NCBI RefSeq assembly: GCF_009914755.1
Contig: NC_060947.1
Strand: one strand, 5' to 3'
From: the human T2T-CHM13v2.0 reference genome, Homo sapiens
DNA length: 64,000 nucleotides
Shown: positions 47,401 to 62,052 of the stretch, piece after piece
How the letters are laid out: each line of letters starts with the position of its first letter
How positions within the stretch are numbered: position 1 is the stretch's first letter
Notes under the pieces: generated by a model
Told to the model about the DNA's origin: nothing
The model's input: only the letters and a program-made list of their open reading frames with translations
Database searches by the model: none
Program-made: the position numbers and the translations under genes

Positions 47401-48178
47401 CAAACACCAACTGTCCACCAAAAACCTATTGAAGTAAAAAAAAAATTTAAAAAAGAAACTAAAAATAGAACTACCATACCATTCAGCAATCTCAGTACTG
47501 AGTACTTATTCAAAGGAAAGATATCACTATACCAAAGGTATAGCTGCACACACGTTTGTCACAGCATTACTAATAGCAAAGTTGTAGAATCAAACTAAGT
47601 GTTCACCAAGGGATGAATGAATAAAGAAAATGTGATATATATATATATATATATATACACGCACACAATTAAATATTATTTGAGCATAAAGATGAATAAA
47701 ATAATGTCATTTGCAGCAACATTGATGGAATTGGAGGTCATTAAGTTAAATGAAATACGCCAGCCACAGAAAGACAAACATTGCGTGTTTTTCCATACAT
47801 GCAGGAGCAAAAAAAGTTGACTTCTTGGAGATAGAGTATAGAATGATAGATACCAAAGACTGGGAAGAGTGTTTGGGTGAGAGGGGGGGATAAAAGTAAG
47901 TCAGTTACTAGGTACAGACATGCATTTATATAGAAGAAATAAGTTCTAATGTTCAATAGCATAATAGGTTGATTATAGTTGGCAACAACATATTTTATAC
48001 TTCAAAGTAGCTGGAAGAGAGGACTTGAAATATTCCCAATAAATAGAAAAAATAAATACTTAAGTTTACGAATATCCCAAATACCTTGGCTTGATTATCA
48101 CATATTCTATGCATGTAATATATACTCACATGTACCCCATGAATACATTATCAACAAAAATATTTAAATCTCGATTTT
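44472..48178 (+). mobile_element. L1MA-type element reduced to 5'UTR (44472-45225) and 3' end (~47452-48170), with an L1PB between them
   Basis: 5'UTR homologous to the one at 30732; L1MA 3'UTR; diverged candidate TSD aagggagtagatctcag (44455-44471) / aaagaagcatatttcag (48179-48195). Confidence 0.7.
45226..47451 (+). mobile_element. 5'-inverted L1PB element: antisense ORF2 arm 45226-46380, sense 3' arm 46381-47451
   Basis: Antisense peptide [19 protein letters not shown]; sense L1PB 3'UTR 'gagggataaaagactacacattgggtacagtgtacactgctcaggtgatgggtgcacc'. Confidence 0.88.
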
Positions 48179-49906
48179 AAAGAAGCATATTTCAGACTTA
48201 CAAATTGTGAGTCATATTCATGTGTATCATACATATTTATGTGCCATCTAAAAGTTACCAAATTAACATTTTTAAAACATCCTTTAAAGTAAAATATTTT
48301 GCATATCTAATTTCAGCAACGACAAAATAAGAGCTTGAATGTACATGACCCAATTATCAGGGATTTTTTTTTCTTAGGGCAAATCATAATTTATCATATG
48401 ATAAAATAACATGAGTGGTAAACTCCAATGCAGTGGCAGAGATTTTCACATTAATTTGTTTATTTATGACAAATAAATATTTTTTACTTACTCTGGAGGA
48501 AAATTTTTTATTACATACTCATGCTTTATACTAATTATAATATTAAACATTAAATTATTCTTAACAATTTCTTAGTAATTTTTAACCCATACTTCTTGCC
48601 CAAAACTTTTTCAATGTGTACAAAGAAAGCTGACTTTAGTTCTGTGAATTGACTTATTTCAAGAAATTGTCGTTTATATTCATATTAACAAATCAACCAT
48701 GAGGTGAAACAAAAATGAGACAATGCAAAAATTAGATTTGAACAATTCCATCTGAAAATCCACACTGCTTTAGATGCAAATCTAAGCTTCAGTAAATATA
48801 AGGCCAAAGTTGTCACTAAAATTCATGTTCATTAGGTAATAAATACTCATAAAGCAAGTTTAGTCATTAATACTAAAATAGTATCAAAAATGAATATTAG
48901 AAAGAAAAGTAAGGCTATTTAAAAAGGAGGGAGGGAAGAAAAGTAGATACAAGATATGCTTCTTTAGCTCTCCTTTTTAAAAAATATTAAAACTCTTATC
49001 TATACCAAACTGACAAAAAAAACCAAATTTCTAAATTCTAAAAATAAACATTAACCTTTCTTTTTTTTAAGTTATAGATATTAAAATCACATAAAAATGA
49101 ATTTGAATCTAGTTTTTAGTTACAGTAAAAACATCTACAAGTCTACTTAAGTAAATTCAATCATGACAGCACAAAAATAAGTTTAATTATATAGCATTTC
49201 AACTACTGCAGACCTGCAGAGAACACATAAATATTCTATACATTGTTAATGAAAGAAAATCACACTAGGTTCTGACAACAGTGAAAGAAAATGAACTCAA
49301 TTGCTTTGAACAAACAGAAGTGAAATGCTGGGAAATTCATTCTCTTTGCATACAAAATTATTTTCAATATTGTAAACTACAATTAGGGTCCCATTTTATC
49401 TATGAAACTTATCTGGACCACTCCAGCTATTCCTTCTCTAGATCCTTAGAGCATTTACTGTCAGTGCCACTCACTTTCCACATTTTTGCATGCTTTCCTT
49501 CAATGTAATTTGTATATTTTTTATGTTATAATATTTTGGAGATGGAGATCTTTCCTCTAAACTTTTCATGTATTCTTTTCTTGACAAGCCAATTGTAAGT
49601 ATTTTAAAGAGAAACATTTTTTCAAAATTTAAATTGTTGTTTCAGTAGTTAATATATACATATGTGTAAAAAAATTAAAATATTACAAACGGTTTCAAGG
49701 TGACAGGTGAGTTTCCTTTTCTCTCTTTTTATTTGTCTTAGCCCCAATGATCTTTCCAACCCAATGTTCAGCAAACAGTACTTAATTTTCTTATGTTTCC
49801 TGTTGGAGATATTTGCAATACTTGTTGCATAGACAAGCACAAAAATAATGTATAATATGCTGCATATTAATATATGTCTTTTAAATATACACATATCCAC
49901 TTGTCT

Positions 49907-49927
49907 ACACACACACACACACACACA
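49907..49927. repeat. (CA)n microsatellite
   Basis: Read directly from the sequence. Confidence 0.9.
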
Positions 49928-51692
49928 TACATATCCAGTTTAAACACAAAAGGTGGCATACTATACACAATGTTATAGTTCTTTATATTCTGCTTATTGT
50001 CTTCCATGCTTCCTAAAAAGTATTAAAGAATGTAGGTTGACTACCTGATTAATTGGAATAATGAGTTTGAGAATTAGCTATGGAAGGGAAAGACTTTTAA
50101 CTTAAGAAAATGACATTTTAAGTTTACCTAATTTATACTTGTCATCTGAAACTTCTTAATTTGAATATTATGCATAGTGAATTTTGTAGGGTAAAAATGT
50201 TTTAAAGCTACCTTATATTGAAACAAATAATAAATTTTGATGGCAATATCATGGGGTCACTTTCCCGATGAGACCTATTGGTTTTATTCATAAGTTATAA
50301 GTTTATTCTGACAGTACAAACAATTTTGGTGGCAGTAGAAACATATTTATTTTGAATAAGTTATTTCAACATTTCTTTATGTAAATGCTCTATACTTAAC
50401 ATTTGTTTCTCTAGGTTTTGTGTGACCACATTGTTTAGAACTTGGTTAATTTGTAACATAAGACAAATGTGAAAATCTGGCCATCATTAGAGTTGAGGTT
50501 TATTTTGTAGTGTTTGTTTTTATTAATATTAACAAACAGTACAGTATAACTTAAATTAGTTTATGCTCAAAAATTAATTTTTCCCAAAAAGCAAAATCAC
50601 AGGTAGAGTCAAAGACCTAAGTTCCGCATAAGCATTTGCTTGCCTGAAATCAATAAAGTAGGTTAAAAAGTTTAGCCTTGCTGTTGGCAAGATGGCCGAA
50701 TAGGAACAGCTCTGGTCTGCAGCTCTCAGCGAGACCAATGCAGAAGATGGGTGATTTTGGCATTTCCAACTGAGTGGCACCTGGAACCCCAGTGAGACAG
50801 AACCATTCACTCCCCTGAAAGGGGGCTGAAGCCTGGGAACCAAGTGGTCTTGCTCAGCGGGACCCACTCCCACAGAGCCAAGCAAGCTAAGAACCACTGG
50901 CTTGAAATTCTCCCTGCCAGCACAGCAGTCTGAAATTCATCTGGGATGATAGAGCTTGGTGCGGGGAGGGGCATCCACCATTACTGAGGATTGAGTAGGT
51001 GGTTTACCCCCTCACAGTGCTAAGGACTGGGGGGAACTCAACACAGCGCAGCAAAAGGGCTGTAGCCAGACTGCCTCTCTAGATTCCTCTTCACTGGGCA
51101 GGACCTCTCTGAAAGAAAGGCAGCAGCCCCACTCAGGGGCTTATAGATAAAACTCCCATTTCACTGGGACAGAGCACCTAGGGGAAGGGGTGGCTGTGGG
51201 CTTAGCTTCAGCAGACTTAAATGTTCCATTCCTGCCTGCCAGCTGTGAAGAAAGCAGTGGATCCTGACAAGGAGGGTTCTACCAGCACAGCACTGGAGCT
51301 CTGCTAAGGGACAGACTGCCTCCTCAAGTGGGTCCCTAACTCCCATGCCTCCTGACTGGGAGAGACCTCCCAACAGGGGTTGACAGACATCTCACACAGG
51401 AGATCTCCAGCTGGCATCAGGCCAGTGCCCCTCTGGGATGAAAATTCCAAAGGAAGGAGTAGGCATCAATCTTTGCTGTTCTCCAGCCTCCACTGGTGAT
51501 ACCCAGCCAAAAAGTGTCTGGAGTTGACCTCCAGCAAACTGCAGCAGACCTGCAGCAGAGGGGCCTGACTGTTAGAAGGAAAACTAACAAACAGAAAGCA
51601 ATAACATCAACATCAACAAAAAGAACCCCCACATAGAAACCCCATCCAAAGATCATCAACCTCAAAAATCAAAGATAGATAAATCCATAAAG

Positions 51693-52444
51693 ATGAGGAA
51701 AAACCTGGGCAAAAATGCTGAAAATTCCAAAAACCAGAAGGCCTCTTAATAGCAAACTCCTCTGAGCTAAAGGTGCATGTTCTAATTCAATGCAAGGAAG
51801 CTAAGATCCTTGACAAAAGGTTACAAGAACTGCTAACTAGAATAACCAGTTTAGTGAAGAACATAAATGACTTGATGGAGCTGAAAGACACAGCACGAGG
51901 AAAGTGAAGGGGAGAATGGAACCAAGTTGGAAAACACACTTCAGGATATTATCCAGGAGAACTTCCCGAACCTAGCAAGACAGACCAACATTCAAATTCA
52001 GGAAATACAGGGACCACCACTGAGATACTCCTCAAAAAGAGCAACCCAAAGACACATAATCATCAGATTCTTCAAGGTTGAAATGAAGGAAAACAATGTT
52101 AAGTGCAGCCAGAGAGAAAGGTCAGGTTACCTACAAAGGGAAGCCCATCAGACTAATGGCGAATCACTCTGGAGAAACCCTACAAGCCAGAAGAGAGTGG
52201 GGGCCAATATTCAACATTCTTAAAGAAAAGAATTTCAACCCAGAATTTTATATCCAGCCAAACTAAGTTTGATAAGTGAAGGGAAAATAAAATCCTTTAC
52301 AGACAAGAAAACACTGAGAGATTTTGTCACCACCAGGCTCCTGAAGGAAGCACTAAATATGGAATACAAGAGCTCCTGAAGGAAGCACTAAATATGGAAA
52401 GGAAAAACAAGTACCAACCACTGCAAAAACACACCAAAATATAA
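51693..52444 (+). pseudogene. L1 ORF1p, disrupted by two internal deletions and frameshifts
   Basis: ATG at 51693 (MRKN...); peptide ENTLQDIIQENFPNLARQTNIQIQEIQ. Confidence 0.88.
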
Positions 52445-52504
52445 AGACCAATGACACTATGAAGAAACTGCATCAACTAACGTGCAAAATAACCAGCTAG
52501 CATC

Positions 52505-55500
52505 ATGATGGAAGGATCAAATTCACACATAGCAATATGAACCTTAAATATAAATGGGCTAAATGCCCCAATTAAAAGACACTGACTGGCAAAATGAATG
52601 GAGTCAAGAGCCATAGGTGTGCCATATGCTGGAGACCCATCTCATGTGCAAAGACACACATAGGCTCAAAATAAAGAGACAGAGGAATATTTACAGAGCA
52701 AATGGAAGGAAAAAACAAAAAGCAGAGGTTGCAATCCTAGACTGATAAAACATACTTTAAACCAACAAAGATAAAAAAAGACAAAGAAGGTCATTACATA
52801 ATGGTTAGGGGATCAATGCAACAAGAAGAGCTAACTATCCTAAATATATATTCACCCAATACAGGAGCACCCAGATTCATAAAGCAAGTTCTTAGAGACC
52901 TAGAAAGAGACTTAGATTCCCACACCATAATAGTTAGAGACCTTAACATCCCATTGTCAATATTAGACAGATCAACGAGACAGAACATTAACAAGTATAT
53001 TTAGGACTTGAACTCAGCTCTGGACAAAGCAGAACTAACAGATATCTACAGAACTCTCCACCCCAAATCAGCAGAATATACATGCTTCTCAGCAGCACAT
53101 AGCACCTATTCTAAAACTGACCACATATTTAGAAGTAAAACACTCCTCAGCAAATGCAAAAGAATGGAAATCATAACAAACAGCCTCTCAGACCACAGTG
53201 CAATCAAATTAGAGCTGAGTATTAAGAAACTCACTCAAAACTGCACAAATACCTGGAAACTGAACAACTTGCTCCTGAATGACTACTGGAAAAATAACAA
53301 AATTAAGACAGAAATAACAAAGTTCTTTGAAACCAATGAGAACAAAGAGACAATGTATCAGAATCTCTGGGACACAGCTACAGCAGTGTTAAGAGACAAA
53401 TTTATAGCACTAAATGCCCACAGGAGAAAGTGGGAAAGATCTAAAATCAATACCCTAACAGCACAATTAAAAGAACTAGAGAAGCAAGAGCAAACAAATT
53501 CCAAAGCTAGCAGAAGACAAGAAATAACTAAGATCAGGTCAGAAATGGAAGAGATAAAGACACACACACAAAAACTTTCAAAAAAATCAATGAATCCAGG
53601 AGCTGGATTTTTGAAAAGAGAAACAAAATAGATAGACCGCTAGCCAGACAAATAGAGAATAAAAGAGAGAAGAATCAAATAGACAAAATAAACATAGTAA
53701 AGGGGATTTCACCAGTGAATACAAACTACCATGAGAGAATACTATAAACACCTCTAGACAAATAAACTAGAAAATCTAGAAGAAGTGGATAAATTCCTGG
53801 ACACACACACCCTTCCAAGACTAAACCAGGAAGAAGTCAAATCCCTGAATAGACTAATAACAAGCTCTGAAATTGAGGCAGAAATTAATAGCCTACCAAC
53901 CAAAAAATGTCCAGGACCAGACGGATTCACAGCCGAATTATACCAGAGGTACAAAGAGAAGCTGGTACCCTTTATTCTGAAACTATTCGAAACAATAGAA
54001 AAAGAGGGACTCCTCCAAACTCATTTTATGAGGCCAGCATCATTCTGATTCCAAAACCTGGCAGAGACACAACAAAAAAAGAAAATTTCAGGCCAATATT
54101 GCTGATGAATATCGATGTGAAAATCTTCAATAAAATGCTGTCAAACCGAATCCAGCAGCACATCAAAAAGCTTATCCACCACAATCAAGTCAGCTTCACC
54201 CCTGGGATGAAAGGCTGGTTCAACATGTGCAAAACAATAAACGTAATGCATCACATACACAGAACCAATGACAAAAACCACATGACTATCTCAATAGATG
54301 CAGAAAAAGCCTTTGATAGAACTCAACACCCCTTCATGCTAAAAATTCTAAATAAACTAGGCATTGATGGAACGTACCTCAAAATAATAAGAGCTATTTA
54401 TGACAAACCCACAGCCAATATCATACTGAATAGGCAAAACCTGGAAGCATTCCCTTTGAAAACCGGCACAAGACAAGGGTGCCCTCTCTCACCACTCCTA
54501 TTCAACATAGTATTGGAAGTTCTGGTGAGGGCAATCAGGCAAGAAAAAGAAATAAAGGGTATTTAAATAGGAAGAGAGGAAGTCAAATTGTCTCTGTTTG
54601 CAGATGACATGATTGCATATTTAGAAAGTCCCATCATCCCAGCCAAAAATTCCTTAAGCTGATAAGCAACTTCAGCAAGCTCTCAGGATACAAAATCAAT
54701 GTGCAAAAATCACAAGCATTCCTATACACCAACAATAGACCACCAGAGAGCCAAATCATGAAAGAACTCCCATTTACTATTGCTACAAAGAGAATAAAAT
54801 ATCTAGGAATACAACTTAAAACGGATGTGAATTACCTCTTCAAGGAGAACTACAAACCACTGCTCAAGGAAATAAGAGAGAACACAAACAAATGCAAAAA
54901 CATTCCATGCTCATGGACAGGAGGAATCAATATCGTGAAAATGGACATACTGCCCAAAGTAACTTATACCTTCAATGCTATTCCCATCAAGCTACCATTG
55001 ACTTTCTTTGCAGAATTAGATAAGACTACTTTAAATTTCATATGGAACCAAAAAAGAGCCCATATAGCCCAGATAATTTTAAGCAAAAAGAACAAAGTTG
55101 GAGGCATCATGCTACCTGACTTCAAACTATAAGGCTACAGTAACCAAAAAGCATGGTACTCATACCAAAACATGTATATAGACCAATGGAAAGCAACAGA
55201 GGCCTCAGAAAGAACACCACATGTCTACAACCCTCTGATCTTCGACAAACCTGACAAAAGCAAGCAATGGGGAAAGGATACCCTATTTAAAAAATGGTGC
55301 TGGGAAATCTGGCTAGCCATATGCAGAAAAAAGAAACTGGAACCCTTCCTTACACCTTATACAAAAATTAACTCAAGATGGATTAAAGGCTTAAATGTAA
55401 AACCCAAAACTATAAAAACCCTGGAAGAAAGCCTAGGCAACACCATTAAGGGAATAGGCATGGGCAAAGACTTCATGACAAAACAGCAAAGCAATTGCAA

Positions 55501-56306
55501 CAAAAGCCAAAATTGACAAATGGGATCTAATTAAACTAAAGAGCTTCTGCTCAGCAAAAGAAACTATCGTCAGGCAACCTACAGAATGGGAGAAAATTTT
55601 TCAATCTATTCATCTGACAAGGTCTAATATCCAGAATCCACAAGGAACTTAAAAAAATTTATAAGAAAAAACAATGTCATCAAAAAGTGGGTGAAGAATA
55701 TGAACAGATGCTTCTCAAAAGAAGACATTTACGTGGCCAATAAACATGTAAAAAAAAAAAAAGCTCATTATCACTGGTCATCAGAGAAATACAATTCAAA
55801 ACCACAATGAGATACCACCTCACGCCAGGTAGAATGATGATCATTAAAAAGTCTGGAAACAACAGATGCTGATGAGGATGCAGAGAAATAGGAATGCTTT
55901 TACATTGTTGGTGGGTGTGTAAATTAGTTCAACCATTGTGGAAGACAGTGTGGCAATTCCACAAGGATCTAGAACCAGAAATACTATTTGACCCGGCAAT
56001 CCCATTACTGGGTATATACCCAAAGGATTAGAAATCATTCTGCTATGAAGACACATGCACACGTTTGTTTATTGCAGCACTATTTACAATAGCAAGACAT
56101 GGAACCAACCCAAATGCCAATCAATGATAGACTCAATAAAGAAAATGTGGCACATATACATTATGGAATACTATGCAGCTATAAAAAATAATGAGTTCAT
56201 GTCCTTTGCAGGGACATAGATGAAGCTGGAAACCATCATTCTCATCAAACTAACACAGGAACAGAAAACCAAACACCACATGTTCTCACTCATAAATGGG
56301 AGCTGA
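52505..56306 (+). pseudogene. L1 ORF2p (APE-type endonuclease / reverse transcriptase), disrupted by stops and frameshifts
   Basis: Fragments [48 protein letters not shown]; LFADDM codons at ~54593; split across several ORFs. Confidence 0.95.
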
Positions 56307-56629
56307 ACAACGTGAACACATGGGGCACAGGGAGGGGAACATCCCACACCAGGGCCTGTTGCCAGGTGGGGGGAAAGGGGAGGGAGAGCATTATGACAAA
56401 CACCTAATGCATGAGGAGCCTAAAACTTAGATGACGGGTTGATAGGTACAGCAAACCACCATGGCACATGTATACCTATGTAACAATCCTGCATGTTCAG
56501 CACATGTATCACCGAACTTAAAGTAAAATAAACACACACACACACACACACAATCAAATAAAAAGAGGAAGAAGAAGAACATATACCCTTTATAAGAGAT
56601 CATTTTTGTTTTTACTGAGAGACAGTACA

Positions 56630-57077
56630 TATATATATAAACACACACTATATATACATATATATATATATATATAATTATTATTTATCATGAAGAATTG
56701 GCTCATGCGGTTATGGGAACCAAGAAGTCCCATGATCTGCCATCCATATGCTGAAGACCCAGGAAAGCCATTCATGTAGTTCCTCCAGTCCAAACTCGAA
56801 TGCCGGAGAACCTGTCCAAGGCCAGGAAGAGATGAATGTCCCAGCTCAAGCAGAGAGAGAGAGAATTCACACTTCCTTCTTTTTGTTCCATTCAGGCCCT
56901 CCACAAACTGGATGAGGCCCAATACATGGGTAAGAGGGGGATCTTCTATACCCAGTCTACTGACGCTAATCTCTTTCAAAAACACCATGAGTCACAGACA
57001 CACCCAGAAACAATGTTTTACCAGCTCTCTGGGCATCCCTTAGCCCAATCAAGTTGACACATATAATTAACCAGCAC
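56630..57077 (-). mobile_element. MLT2 (ERVL) LTR, lacking its terminal bases
   Basis: Reverse complement 'ggttaattatatgtgtcaacttgattgggctaagggatgcccag'; (TA)-rich segment typical of MLT2. Confidence 0.85.
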
Positions 57078-57263
57078 CAATGGGGAGTTGCTAATTCATG
57101 GGTGTAAAGTTTCAGTGAAGCAAGATAATTAAGTTCTAGAAATTTCGTGTACCATGTTGTACCTATAGTCAGTGATGTTCTATTGTGCACTCAAAATTTT
57201 GCTAAAAGGGTAGATTTCACATTAAGTGTTCTGACCACAATAAAATAAAATTGAAAAAAAAAA
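57078..57263 (+). mobile_element. L1MB1/2-like 3' end with A tail
   Basis: 'taaagtttcagtgaagcaagataattaagttctaga...aagggtagatttcacattaagtgttctgaccacaataaaa'. Confidence 0.8.
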
Positions 57264-58139
57264 CAAAGGGAATAGACATTTCAAATGTGCAGTGGAGGGA
57301 AAGAAAGGGGAGAGTCACAGTTAGGCTAGGGGCTGCTCCTCATTCAGACAAGTGTCCTCACACCATCCACTAAGTCTCTGGGCAGAGATGACAGACGATT
57401 GTGCAAAGAAAAACCTAAGGGCTTTATTTTAAGACCTTCTGTCAGGAAAGGCCTTTGGAGGAGCTTCAACGACTGGACTGCATTCCTGAAGGTCAAACAG
57501 CAGTGACATGATCTGCTGGATTTGGGGAAGCATTTTTAAAAAAGAGGAATAATAAGAAGAACATATACCCTTCATGAGAGATGATTTTTATTTTTTACCA
57601 AGAGACAGAGAAAGAGGCGAGAAAGTTCTGGTAGGAAGGAATTAAAGGGAGATGAGCACCTGCCTCTTCAGCTTCTGTTGAAAGTGCTCTTAAAGCAGCG
57701 GTTTCCAGACAGGGCCAGGTACTTTATTACAAATATTGGAATTTATTTCAATAAGCTCTGTCATTTCTTAGCAGCTGTTTCACTTTACAGCAAACTAACC
57801 AACAGAGGTGTAGGAGGCAGCTTGTCTTTTGTCTTTCATTTTGATGAACTTGATTTTTTTTTTTTTTTGGTGTGATGCTTCTGGCTGAGGCTCACAGGAA
57901 GAGAAGACTCTGTTTTTGTTTTTTGTTTTTGCTTCAGCAGAGGGAATGAGGAGGAGCAGGCGGTGCCTGTGAGCAGCCTACCTTCTCAAGGGTCCCGAGT
58001 TACAAAGAGCAGACATCACGCCCTGTGTCTCTAGTTACAGAACCAGAAGGAAGTGACTGTATTATTCTCCCACATTTATCAGCCCAGGGAAGCCATTCGT
58101 GTGTTCTGAGAGGATCCTATCTTTTATTCTCATAAAAAC

Positions 58140-58322
58140 ATCATTCTATTTTCTTTCTTATCAGGACTTGAGATTAGCCAATTACATTATTGTGTACACC
58201 TTTTCCTTTTCCACTACCAGAATGTAAGGTCCATGATATCAGGAATTCCGACTTATGTATCACTTATGTCTAGAACAGTTCCTAGTACATAGTAGGTAAC
58301 CAGAAAATGATTACTGAATTAG
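58140..58322 (+). mobile_element. L2 3'-end relic
   Basis: 'ccactaccagaatgtaaggtccatga...ctagaacagttcctagtacatagtagg'. Confidence 0.7.
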
Positions 58323-58412
58323 TTACACTTTCCATAAAATCCCAGGTTTTTCTTCCTCTAGGAAGCTTTTGAGAGTTGTCCCAGTACATGTTAATTTTAC
58401 TTACTCCAAGAT

Positions 58413-59035
58413 TGATGGGAATGTAAATTAGCTCGACCATTGTGGAAAATAGTATCTTGATTCCTCAAAAAGCTAAAAGCAAAAATACCATTTAATTCAG
58501 CAATCCCATCGCTTGGTATATACTCAGAAGAATATAAATCATTCTACCATAAAGACACATGCACACGAATGTTCATTGCAGCACTATTCACAATAGCAAA
58601 GACATGGAATCAACCTAAATGCCCATCAATGACAGATTGGATAAAGAAAATGTTGTACAAATACGCCATGGAATACTATGCAGCCATAAAAAAGAATGAG
58701 ATCATGTCTTTTGCGGGAACATGGATGGAGCTGGAGGCTATTCTCCTCAGCAAACTAACACAGGAACAGAACACCAAATACCAGAGGTTCTTGCTTATAA
58801 GTGGGAACTAAATGTTGGGAACACTGGACACGAAGAAGGAAACAACAGACACCAGGGTCTACTTGAGGGTGGAGGATGGGAAGAGGGAGAGAAGCAGAAA
58901 AGGTAACTATTGGGTGCTGGGCTTAATACCTGAATGATGAAATAATCTGGACAACAAACCTGTGTGACACAAGTTCACCTGTGTAACAGAACTTCATATG
59001 TACCTTGAAACCTAAAATAAAAGTTTTTAAAAAAT
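58413..59035 (+). mobile_element. 5'-truncated L1PA15/16-like 3' end
   Basis: MFIAALFTIAKTWNQPKCPSM peptide; older-type 3'UTR; aataaa at 59016. Confidence 0.9.
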
Positions 59036-59199
59036 TCAAAAAAAGTTTAGCCCTGAACAAAACAACAGAAATGTTTTTTATAAAATTTTCTTTATGGAAA
59101 AGAGATAATATATTTATTCACATAACATCAAGCAAACAATCATTATGAAGCAGAGACTAAGAATGGAGGAAATATAATTAATACTTCTACTGATCGCTG

Positions 59200-59410
59200 T
59201 TAACAATAAGAAAAATTTACTGAATATGTACTATGTGTTGAGACTATTTTGCATGCGTAATCTCAGATACTCCTTATAATAATCTGCTGCAATATGATAT
59301 TAATACTCACAAGTTAAAGATAAAAACTTTCTGTTAGTATAAAATATCCTGCCCACTGCCACAAGCTGGAAAGGATGCAAATCAAGTATGTCTGTGTAAA
59401 GCATTTTCAG
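59200..59410 (-). mobile_element. MIR relic
   Basis: 'atttactgaatatgtactatgtg' antisense MIR/L2-type 3' end; weak similarity beyond it. Confidence 0.5.
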
Positions 59411-59429
59411 CCCTCAAGTAGTTCGCATT

Positions 59430-60360
59430 TCTTTGACAATGATGAACAGAAAGTGTCATAGTAAGAAAGTGGAAGAGCGCCTAACCTAGACTAGCCTGAA
59501 AATGATGGGGGTCAGCTAATGAGATCAATTTTGGAAGATGGTAAAAACTGGGTAGTATTGAACAGAAAAAATATTTTTTCACAAAAGCAGCAGCTTGTAA
59601 AAAATACTCATAGGGGAAAAAACCTCATCGGCATGAAAGACTCATACATAGATAAATAAGAAAGATGTGAATGATGATAAAATTAACATAATGAGGCAAA
59701 TATAACAGATTGTTAGGGGCTTTAATAAAAGATAAGAAGTTTGTGTTTTGTCATTTGATCAATAGAGGGTCACTAAAGTATTTTAAGTGGGGATGACACA
59801 ATTAGTCTTGAGTTTCATAAAGACTACTCAATCATCAATATGGAAAATGGACTAAAGAGGGTTTTATCAAAGCAGGCATTACTACAAAAGAGAGCATAGG
59901 GTCTTAACTAAAGTGATAATAGTGGGGATATAGAATGGACTGATTCAAGAGGTATAAATAAAGTAAAAATTATCAAGAACTTCAATGGCTGTTTGGAGCT
60001 GAAAAAAATTTATTGAGAGCACATTACTGCTTTAGAGTCTAGATGGAGAAGTCTGGTTGCAGTCCCAGATTTCCAATCAGGGCAACTGAGTGCTACTCAC
60101 CAAGAAAGGAAATGCAGAAGGAGGAGCACTGATTTGACAAAAAGATAATGCATTCAGTTTTGATGTATTGAGTACTACCAGGAAAGCTAAGTGGGGATAT
60201 CCAGTATGCAGTTTGATATACTTAAGACTTAAGATAAAACTCTGAGTTACTCTAGGCTTAGGAGTAATCTGTAGAAAGGTGAATACACGGTAGATGCTGA
60301 GATGTCCTTAATAAAAGTTGTATACAGTGTATTGACAACAGAAGAGAGTGAATGAGGGCA
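59430..60360 (-). mobile_element. L2 relic
   Basis: 'aatagagggtcactaaagtattttaagtggggatgacacaattag', 'ttcagttttgatgtattgag' antisense L2 motifs. Confidence 0.65.
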
Positions 60361-60374
60361 TTTTAAAAATTTTC

Positions 60375-61690
<1,316 letters not shown>

Positions 61691-62052
61691 TGCAGGTTGA
61701 GCACCCACAATCTAAAAATCATAAATCCAAAATGTTCCAATAAAGCCAGTGCACAAGACAGTATATTCAGCGGCCCCAATGGAACAAAAGAACCTCCCAT
61801 CCACTTTCATCCGCAAAATCTTTTCTATATACACCCAGATTTATCCATGCAAACACACCTACAAAGGGGAATAAAATGGGACATGTAGAGGCTGGATATG
61901 CCAATGGCAGAATCCCCATGATGTCCTAGATGGAGCAAAGACCTATGTGCATTATTTACTGTGTTTTTTTTTTTTTTTACTTTTTTGGCTTATTATCTGC
62001 TTTGTGGTATAAAAATCTTGTTGAAAATGTCAAAAAGGCCTGAATATATCTA

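What the first reader, a model, noticed from the sequence alone, without database searches (positions are those of the whole stretch)
50665..59055. L1 insertion carrying a ~2.5-kb 3' transduction that ends at another L1's poly(A) signal
Seen: 'tt|aaaaagtttagccttg' directly precedes the L1 5' end. The same 16-mer (15/16 match) reappears only at 59040-59055, right after the aataaa and A-rich tail of a different, older L1PA15/16-like fragment. It is absent after the L1's own tail (~56530-56560), and the older fragment shows no TSD of its own. Known: L1 transcripts read through their weak poly(A) site and co-mobilise 3' flanking DNA. Inference: the whole ~8.4 kb is one insertion, and the MLT2, L1MB, unique, L2 and L1PA15 pieces were imported from another locus. 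A repeat annotation would list them as independent native elements.
Basis: partly seen in the sequence, partly recalled or inferred. Interest (0 to 1): 0.85.

Follow-up and report, generated by a model that had tools for sequence, protein, structure and literature searches.

The report
L1 insertion with 2.5-kb transduced flank
An old, dead L1 jumping gene on the human X chromosome carried about 2.5 kb of neighbouring DNA with it from chromosome 16 when it copied itself, which is a well-known and ordinary behaviour of L1 elements.

Summary
AAAAAGTTTAGCCTTG (50665-50680) abuts the L1 5' end. Its only near-copy in the window, AAAAAGTTTAGCCCTG (59040-59055), follows the AATAAA and short A-rich tail of an older L1 3' fragment. 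Window 56559-59034 is a copy of C16:8353321-8350704 (minus strand), with 2150 matches and 301 mismatches, K2P 0.135. The homology starts right after the L1's own tail and stops at the older L1's poly(A) site. Both chrX flanks are single-copy. At chr16 the homology begins at TTTT|AAAAAGAGG, a canonical L1 endonuclease site, and no L1 is present there, so chr16 is the empty site of a lost source L1. A local 122-bp duplicate crosses that site without interruption, which sets the direction as chr16 to chrX. The older L1 fragments on chrX and chr16 are sister copies with 99/97 support. The main L1's tip branch (0.063) fits co-insertion. This is a textbook L1 3' transduction. It is well documented here but not novel. 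Subfamily names and outgroup empty sites could not be checked.

The parts
50665..50680 (+). 5' target-site duplication AAAAAGTTTAGCCTTG, preceded by GGTT (a TT|AAAA L1 endonuclease site)
50681..56532 (+). Essentially full-length, decayed primate L1. Its 5' end CTGTTGGCAAGATGGCCGAATAGG lies within about 5 nt of the 5' termini of 11 of 11 related copies examined. Its own AATAAA is at 56527-56532. The largest ATG open frame is 219 aa.
53907..54566 (+). Open-frame fragment of ORF2 with a reverse transcriptase domain (Pfam RVT_1, E 5.4e-30)
56533..56559 (+). (CA)n followed by ATCAAAT. This is neither L1 nor chr16 sequence. It is inferred to be the degenerate remnant of the source L1's genomic A-tail, copied as part of the read-through transcript.
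   Evidence: inference
56560..59034 (+). Transduced segment, a copy of C16:8353320-8350704 (minus strand). 2150 matches, 301 mismatches, 18 gaps covering 195 columns, K2P 0.135.
56627..57077 (+). High-copy interspersed repeat inside the transduced segment (3466 first-look candidates genome-wide, 67-77% identity among the whole-element matches that were scored). Family name not verified.
57472..57595 (+). Second copy (A') of a local duplication about 122 bp long. The first copy spans the chr16 empty site, and on chrX that first copy is cut off at 56560.
58412..59028 (+). Older, 5'-truncated L1 3' fragment in the same orientation. Its AATAAA (59016-59021) terminated the read-through transcript. 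It is sister to the chr16 copy in a tree of 23 L1 3' ends (99/97 support).
59029..59039 (+). Short degenerate A-rich tail (AAAAAATTCAA). Its boundary with the TSD is ambiguous because the TSD begins with AAAAA.
59040..59055 (+). 3' target-site duplication AAAAAGTTTAGCCCTG (15 of 16 identical to the 5' copy)

Best explanation
Window 50665-59055 is one L1 retrotransposition event with a 3' transduction of about 2.5 kb. A source L1 once sat on chromosome 16 at TTTT|AAAAAGAGG, next to C16:8353320 on the minus strand. Transcription ran past its own AATAAA, continued through about 2.5 kb of chr16 flank, and was cleaved and polyadenylated some 8-18 nt after the AATAAA of an older L1 3' fragment lying in the same orientation. 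That RNA was inserted by target-primed reverse transcription at GGTT|AAAAAGTTTAGCCTTG on chrX, which created the 16-bp duplication. The source L1 is not at chr16 in this assembly. The site there is precisely empty, so the source allele most likely never became fixed. Shown: the TSD, the junctions, the chr16 paralog with its boundaries, the direction of copying, and the agreement of branch lengths. Inferred: the read-through transcript, the former presence of an L1 at chr16, and the date.
For: (1) A TSD with 15 of 16 identity lies at both outer junctions and at a TT|AAAA site. It is the only such pair in the window.

(2) There is no TSD for the L1 alone or for the older fragment alone.

(3) Window 56559-59034 matches C16:8353321-8350704 in one BLAST alignment of 2648 columns. 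In the global alignment there are 2150 matches and 301 mismatches, K2P 0.135. The window's flanks and its L1 body match nothing else in the 30 kb of chr16 examined, apart from Alu and old L1 fragments.

(4) Both chrX flanks (531 bases each) have 1 of 1 candidates genome-wide, namely themselves.

(5) The chr16 homology starts at TTTT|AAAAAGAGG. TTTTAAAA occurs at 0.0002 per position in that 30 kb.

(6) A duplicate about 122 bp long reads straight through that chr16 site. Its paralog is contiguous in both the chr16 and chrX copies. The chrX copy of the first unit is cut exactly at AAAAAGAGG, against the L1 tail.

(7) The older L1 fragments share the same truncation point. In a tree with 20 unrelated copies and the main L1 as outgroup they are sisters with 99/97 support, stem 0.031, tips 0.078 and 0.090.

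(8) The main L1 3' end has a tip branch of 0.063 in its own family tree. Half the chrX-chr16 distance is 0.068. This fits one insertion date.

(9) The segment is 39.5% G+C, against 28-33% in the chrX flanks.
Against: No L1 is present at the chr16 site, so the source element is inferred rather than seen.

The A-tail before the 3' TSD is only about 11 nt and is degenerate.

Five of the 16 TSD bases are A, and the remaining 11-mer alone is not rare in the window.

For the older L1 fragment, 18 of 39 non-self hits scored above the chr16 copy (84-86% against 83%). Raw similarity therefore does not single out chr16 there. Only the shared truncation point, the contiguous flank and the tree do.

No outgroup genome could be examined, so the empty chrX site was not seen.

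The own-genome search scores only the best candidates (40 of 3466). Further offspring carrying very short transductions could have been missed.
Confidence: 0.92

Rival explanations
1. Template-switch chimera. L1 reverse transcriptase first copied a polyadenylated chr16 transcript that ended at the older L1's poly(A) site, and then jumped to the 3' end of an L1 mRNA. This would give the same L1-plus-chr16 order and a single TSD without any L1 ever having sat on chr16.
For: It explains the absence of an L1 at chr16 and the single TSD around the whole unit.
Against: The chr16 boundary falls exactly on TTTT|AAAAA, a motif present at about 0.0002 per position. A transcript 5' end or a random switch point has no reason to lie there. 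The 27 bases between the L1's AATAAA and the chr16 sequence look like an old genomic tail that decayed into a microsatellite, as expected of a source element's tail.
Confidence: 0.04
2. Two separate events and a chance TSD. A 2.5-kb copy of the chr16 segment was already at this chrX site, having arrived by some duplication or by capture during break repair. The L1 later inserted exactly at its left edge.
For: The A-tail before 59040 is very short. The 11-mer part of the TSD is not rare on its own.
Against: The L1 alone has no TSD. The 16-mer pair sits precisely at the two outer junctions and is the only pair in the window. The segment ends at a poly(A) site and begins at an endonuclease site. 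The L1 tip branch (0.063) matches the per-lineage divergence of the segment (0.068). This rival needs three coincidences.
Confidence: 0.02
3. Reverse direction. The chrX L1 is the source, and chr16 carries an orphan, 5'-truncated transduction derived from it.
For: Homology is limited to the same 2.5 kb in both places.
Against: The chr16 copy has no TSD, and its left boundary is not a junction. A local duplicate runs 64 bases further upstream across it. The TSD lies on chrX around L1 plus segment. The chr16 sequence continues past the poly(A) site into non-A sequence: CTAACAACGA, then an Alu with its own duplication of about 17 bp.
Confidence: 0.01

Closest known systems
L1 3' transduction (Moran et al. 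1999; Goodier et al. 2000; Pickeral et al. 2000; Szak et al. 2003). These four were seen only as entries in the reference list of PMC9311842. Two of them were requested and are not held. The mechanism as described was read in the introduction of PMC9311842 and in passages of bioRxiv 10.1101/2021.07.12.451456.
   Same: A weak L1 poly(A) signal is bypassed. The downstream flank is co-mobilised to the next poly(A) signal. One TSD encloses L1 plus flank, the target is a TT|AAAA site, and the flank has a paralog at the source locus.
   Different: Nothing differs in kind. Three particulars stand out. The event is old, with K2P 0.135 between the copies. The source L1 is missing and only its empty site survives. 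The terminating signal belongs to another, older L1 3' end.
The CHM13 catalogue of TE-driven transductions (Hoyt et al., bioRxiv 10.1101/2021.07.12.451456; passages read)
   Same: It covers the same assembly and uses the same logic: a TSD search around annotated L1s with a modified TSDfinder. It reports 183 highest-confidence L1 3' events.
   Different: I could not see whether this event is listed, because the preprint's supplements are closed. The passages speak of transduced loci and 'their identified parents'. An event whose parent L1 is absent may therefore fall outside the verified set. This is my inference and was not checked.

Membership tests
L1 3' transduction event | An L1 with its own 3' end and poly(A) signal, followed directly by non-L1 sequence instead of a TSD | tested here: met
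   AATAAA lies at 56527-56532, followed by (CA)n ATCAAAT and then chr16-derived sequence. No shared word of 8 or more with the 5' flank occurs after the L1's own tail.
L1 3' transduction event | A single TSD enclosing L1 plus the extra sequence, at an L1 endonuclease consensus site | tested here: met
   A 16-bp TSD with 15 of 16 identity lies at 50665-50680 and 59040-59055, preceded by GGTT. It is the only pair in the window.
L1 3' transduction event | The extra sequence ends at a poly(A) signal followed by an A-tail | tested here: met
   AATAAA is at 59016-59021 and homology to chr16 ends at about 59034. The tail is only about 11 nt and degenerate.
L1 3' transduction event | The extra sequence has a second genomic copy that begins at the 3' flank of a source L1 | tested here: inconclusive
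   The paralog at C16:8353320-8350704 begins exactly at TTTT|AAAAAGAGG, but no L1 is present there. It is an empty site, not a filled one.
L1 3' transduction event | An empty target site, with one copy of the TSD, in species that diverged before the insertion | not testable with these tools
   No other primate genome was available. Both chrX flanks are single-copy in this genome, so there is no paralogous empty site either.
LINE-1 (primate L1PA-type element) | ORF2 reverse transcriptase, and a 5' UTR and 3' end colinear with other genomic L1 copies | tested here: met
   RVT_1 at E 5.4e-30. The 5' 740 bases gave 4624 first-look candidates, and the 39 non-self long hits were 82-87% identical. 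The 5' terminus aligned with 11 of 11 related copies. The 3' end gave hits at 88-91%.
Subfamily labels L1PA7/8 (main element) and L1PA15/16 (older fragment) | Best match to the named subfamily consensus | not testable with these tools
   No repeat consensus library was available. Only the relative age is supported. The older fragment's best unrelated hits are 83-86% identical, against 88-91% for the main L1. The older fragment also has a stem of 0.031 before the copy event.

The most novel reading that the evidence does not exclude
The progenitor L1 never reached fixation on chr16. This chrX insertion is then the only surviving record of an extinct, transduction-prone source element. Because its parent locus now holds no L1, pipelines that demand an identified parent TE would leave it out, and a repeat track would show the 2.5 kb as native chrX repeats. 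If such parentless old transductions are common, the share of primate DNA shuffled by L1 is underestimated.
Probability: 0.4. Interest if true: 0.3.

Novelty: new member of a known kind. Interest (0 to 1): 0.2.

Why it matters
This is a clean, internally verified example of an ancient L1 3' transduction between chromosomes, from chr16 to chrX. Both endonuclease sites, the source's empty site and the terminating poly(A) signal can still be read. It has two practical consequences. Repeat annotation of 56560-59034 as independent local insertions would misdate and mislocate those elements. The older L1 fragment in particular inserted on chr16, not on chrX. It also shows that an older sense-oriented L1 3' end can act as the stop for a younger L1's read-through. 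None of this changes what is known about L1 biology.

Tried and rejected
**Paralogous empty site for the chrX target.** I searched each 531-base flank against the own genome. Each found only itself, so no internal empty-site test is possible.

**Further offspring of the same source.** Apart from chr16, nothing matched the first 730 bases of the segment above 77% (40 of 3466 candidates scored). Nothing else matched 57270-58410 beyond short pieces (5 of 5 candidates scored).

**A source L1 in 30 kb of chr16.** The only hits were an old L1 piece at 8354000-8354142 (70.5% identity) and the older fragment itself.

**A TSD for the older L1 at chr16.** No shared word of 8 or more was found. This is inconclusive.

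**Raw similarity as a test of common descent of the older fragment.** It failed, because 18 unrelated copies scored above chr16. I replaced it with a tree.

**Pickeral 2000 and Szak 2003.** Neither is held.

**Pfam on five other open frames.** There were no matches.

Full report
**Observation.** The sequence reads ...aggTT|AAAAAGTTTAGCCTTG|CTGTTGGCAAGATGGCCGAATAGGAACAGCTC..., with the 16-mer at 50665-50680. At 59040-59055 it reads AAAAAGTTTAGCCCTG, straight after ...CCTAAAATAAAAGTTTTTAAAAAATTCAA. At up to 2 mismatches on both strands these are the only two matches in the window. Shuffles gave a mean of 0.17, and 2 of 100 shuffles reached two matches. On the + strand the next-best 16-mer has 4 mismatches. 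The non-A part (GTTTAGCCYTG) is not rare by itself at 1 mismatch, with 5 matches against 2.39 expected. The strength of the observation therefore lies in where the two copies sit. No word of 8 or more from the 5' flank recurs after the L1's own tail (56520-56640). The older L1 fragment has no flanking repeat of 7 or more of its own.

**The L1.** The 5' 740 bases gave 4624 first-look candidates in the window's own genome. The 39 non-self long hits were 82-87% identical, and several alignments begin at window 50680-50685. In 11 of 11 related copies inspected, the element starts (G)GGAGATCTGGCAAGATGG or GCTGCTGGCAAGATGG. The window's CTGTTGGCAAGATGG is therefore the L1 terminus short by only a few bases, and the TSD abuts it. 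The coding region is decayed. The longest ATG frame is 219 aa, and it carries a reverse transcriptase domain (RVT_1, E 5.4e-30). The element ends ...GAACTTAAAGTAAAATAAA, with AATAAA at 56527-56532, followed by (CA)n ATCAAAT. I could not verify the subfamily name because no repeat library was available.

**The decisive test.** Searching 57270-58410 against the own genome gave 5 of 5 candidates scored. One was a full-length paralog, C16:8351322-8352603 on the minus strand. I fetched 30 kb of chr16 and ran BLAST against window 49000-61000. This gave one alignment of 2648 columns, window 56559-59034 to C16:8353321-8350704. The chrX flanks matched nothing there apart from Alu copies, and the L1 body matched only two older L1 fragments. 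In a global alignment there are 2150 matches, 301 mismatches (182 transitions, 119 transversions) and 18 gaps covering 195 columns, giving K2P 0.135. The imported block is therefore bounded on the left by the L1's own tail and on the right by the older L1's poly(A) site, as a 3' transduction predicts. Both chrX flanks (531 bases each) are single-copy in the genome. This excludes a larger segmental duplication.

**The chr16 site.** Read on the minus strand, chr16 shows ...GGATTTGGGGAAACCTTTT|AAAAAGAGGAAGAAGAAG.... Homology to chrX begins exactly at AAAAAGAGG, where chrX has ...AATAAA(CA)nATCAAAT|AAAAAGAGGAAGAAG. TTTT|AAAAA is the canonical L1 endonuclease site, and TTTTAAAA occurs at only 0.0002 per position in that 30 kb. 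No L1 is present there. Upstream lie a (TA)n run and an Alu. I read this as the empty site of the source L1. The 27 bases at 56533-56559 would then be the remnant of the source element's genomic A-tail. That last point is an inference.

**Direction of copying.** A stretch of about 122 bp that spans the chr16 site (8353385-8353264) has a local duplicate about 1 kb downstream, at C16:8352401-8352285 and window 57472-57595, with 84-89% identity. It is not found elsewhere in the genome. In the four-way alignment the duplicate reads straight through ...CTGCTGGATTTGGGGAA.CATTTT.AAAAAGAGGAA.... The chr16 arrangement is therefore uninterrupted and ancestral. The chrX copy of the first unit is cut off at AAAAAGAGG, against the L1 tail. 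chr16 also lacks any TSD around the segment. It continues past the poly(A) site as CTAACAACGA..., interrupted there by an Alu with its own duplication of about 17 bp. The direction is chr16 to chrX.

**The 3' end.** Both copies share ...CCTAAAATAAAAGTTTTT(TT)AAAAAA and then diverge. Cleavage therefore fell about 8-18 nt after AATAAA (59016-59021). The tail left today is only about 11 nt (AAAAAATTCAA) before the TSD, which is itself A-initial. This is the weakest anatomical feature, though it is unsurprising at this age.

**The older L1 fragment.** It starts at 58412 and aligns to the main L1's 55908-56494 at 74%. Similarity alone does not tie it to chr16. In the genome search, 18 of 39 non-self hits scored above the chr16 copy (84-86% against 83%; 40 of 12355 candidates scored). 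I therefore fetched the 20 best unrelated copies and built a tree with the main L1 as outgroup. The chrX and chr16 fragments are sisters with support 99/97 (bootstrap not fully settled), a shared stem of 0.031, and tips of 0.078 and 0.090. They also share the same truncation point and a contiguous upstream flank. The fragment inserted once, on chr16, and was later copied to chrX.

**Timing.** A like-for-like tree of the main L1's last 626 bases with its 20 best relatives gives the window's L1 a tip of 0.063. This is close to half the chrX-chr16 distance of the transduced block (0.068) and to the chrX tip of the older fragment (0.078). The L1 and the block are therefore of one age at this locus. 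With a recalled neutral rate of about 2.2e-9 per site per year, the event is roughly 30 million years old. I would not narrow that beyond 25-40 million years. The block is 39.5% G+C, against 28-33% in the chrX flanks.

**Rivals.** There are three.
- A template-switch chimera would also explain the missing chr16 L1. It does not explain why the chr16 boundary is an endonuclease site, or the decayed tail at 56533-56559.
- Two independent events with a chance TSD would need several coincidences and is contradicted by the matching ages.
- The reverse direction is excluded.

**Comparison with what is known.** This is L1 3' transduction as described in the literature. The mechanism is stated in the introduction of PMC9311842 and in passages of Hoyt et al., bioRxiv 10.1101/2021.07.12.451456. 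The primary papers of Moran, Goodier, Pickeral and Szak were seen only as reference-list entries, and two of them are not held. Hoyt et al. catalogued 183 highest-confidence L1 3' transductions in this same assembly with a TSD-based tool.

**Verdict.** The finding is ordinary in kind, and its interest is low.

Noticed in passing
window 56560-56625 and 57472-57595; L007 (C16:8353385-8353264 and 8352401-8352285): A local direct duplication of about 122 bp, roughly 1 kb apart and 84-89% identical, that predates the transduction. It was not found elsewhere in the genome (5 of 5 candidates scored). Its origin is unknown; it could be a tandem duplication or the flanks of an inserted block. The chr16 second copy also carries an expansion of about 46 bp of poly-T.
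   Followed up: partly
L007 (C16:8353414-8353735 and C16:8350404-8350693): Two Alu elements sit at chr16 just outside both ends of the transduced block. Neither is present on chrX. The downstream one lies in the older L1's tail and has a duplication of about 17 bp, AAAAAAAYTAACAAYGA.
   Followed up: partly
window 50681-51400 against genome hits: The 5' UTR varies in length within the family. Only 6 of 39 non-self long hits are colinear with this L1 from the 5' end. In 22 loci the first 90 bases or so match separately, 300-440 bp further upstream, so most relatives carry an extra block after about position 115 of the query.
   Followed up: no
L059 (C24:5450265-5450889) and L061 (C23:91103727-91104351): Two L1 3' ends on contigs 24 and 23 are almost identical (tips 0.0015 and 0.0034, shared stem 0.052). 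This is as expected if they lie in a recent X-to-Y transposed block; that reading is recalled and was not tested.
   Followed up: no
window 56560-59039 against 48001-50664 and 59056-61700: The imported block forms a compositional island: 39.5% G+C, against 28.0% and 32.8% in the flanks.
   Followed up: yes
window 56624-56686; L007 C16:8353383-8353440: (TA)n microsatellites lie near the start of the block in both copies, but at different places. In chr16 the long (TA)n lies upstream of the empty site, next to an Alu tail. In chrX a (TA)n lies about 65 bp inside the block.
   Followed up: no
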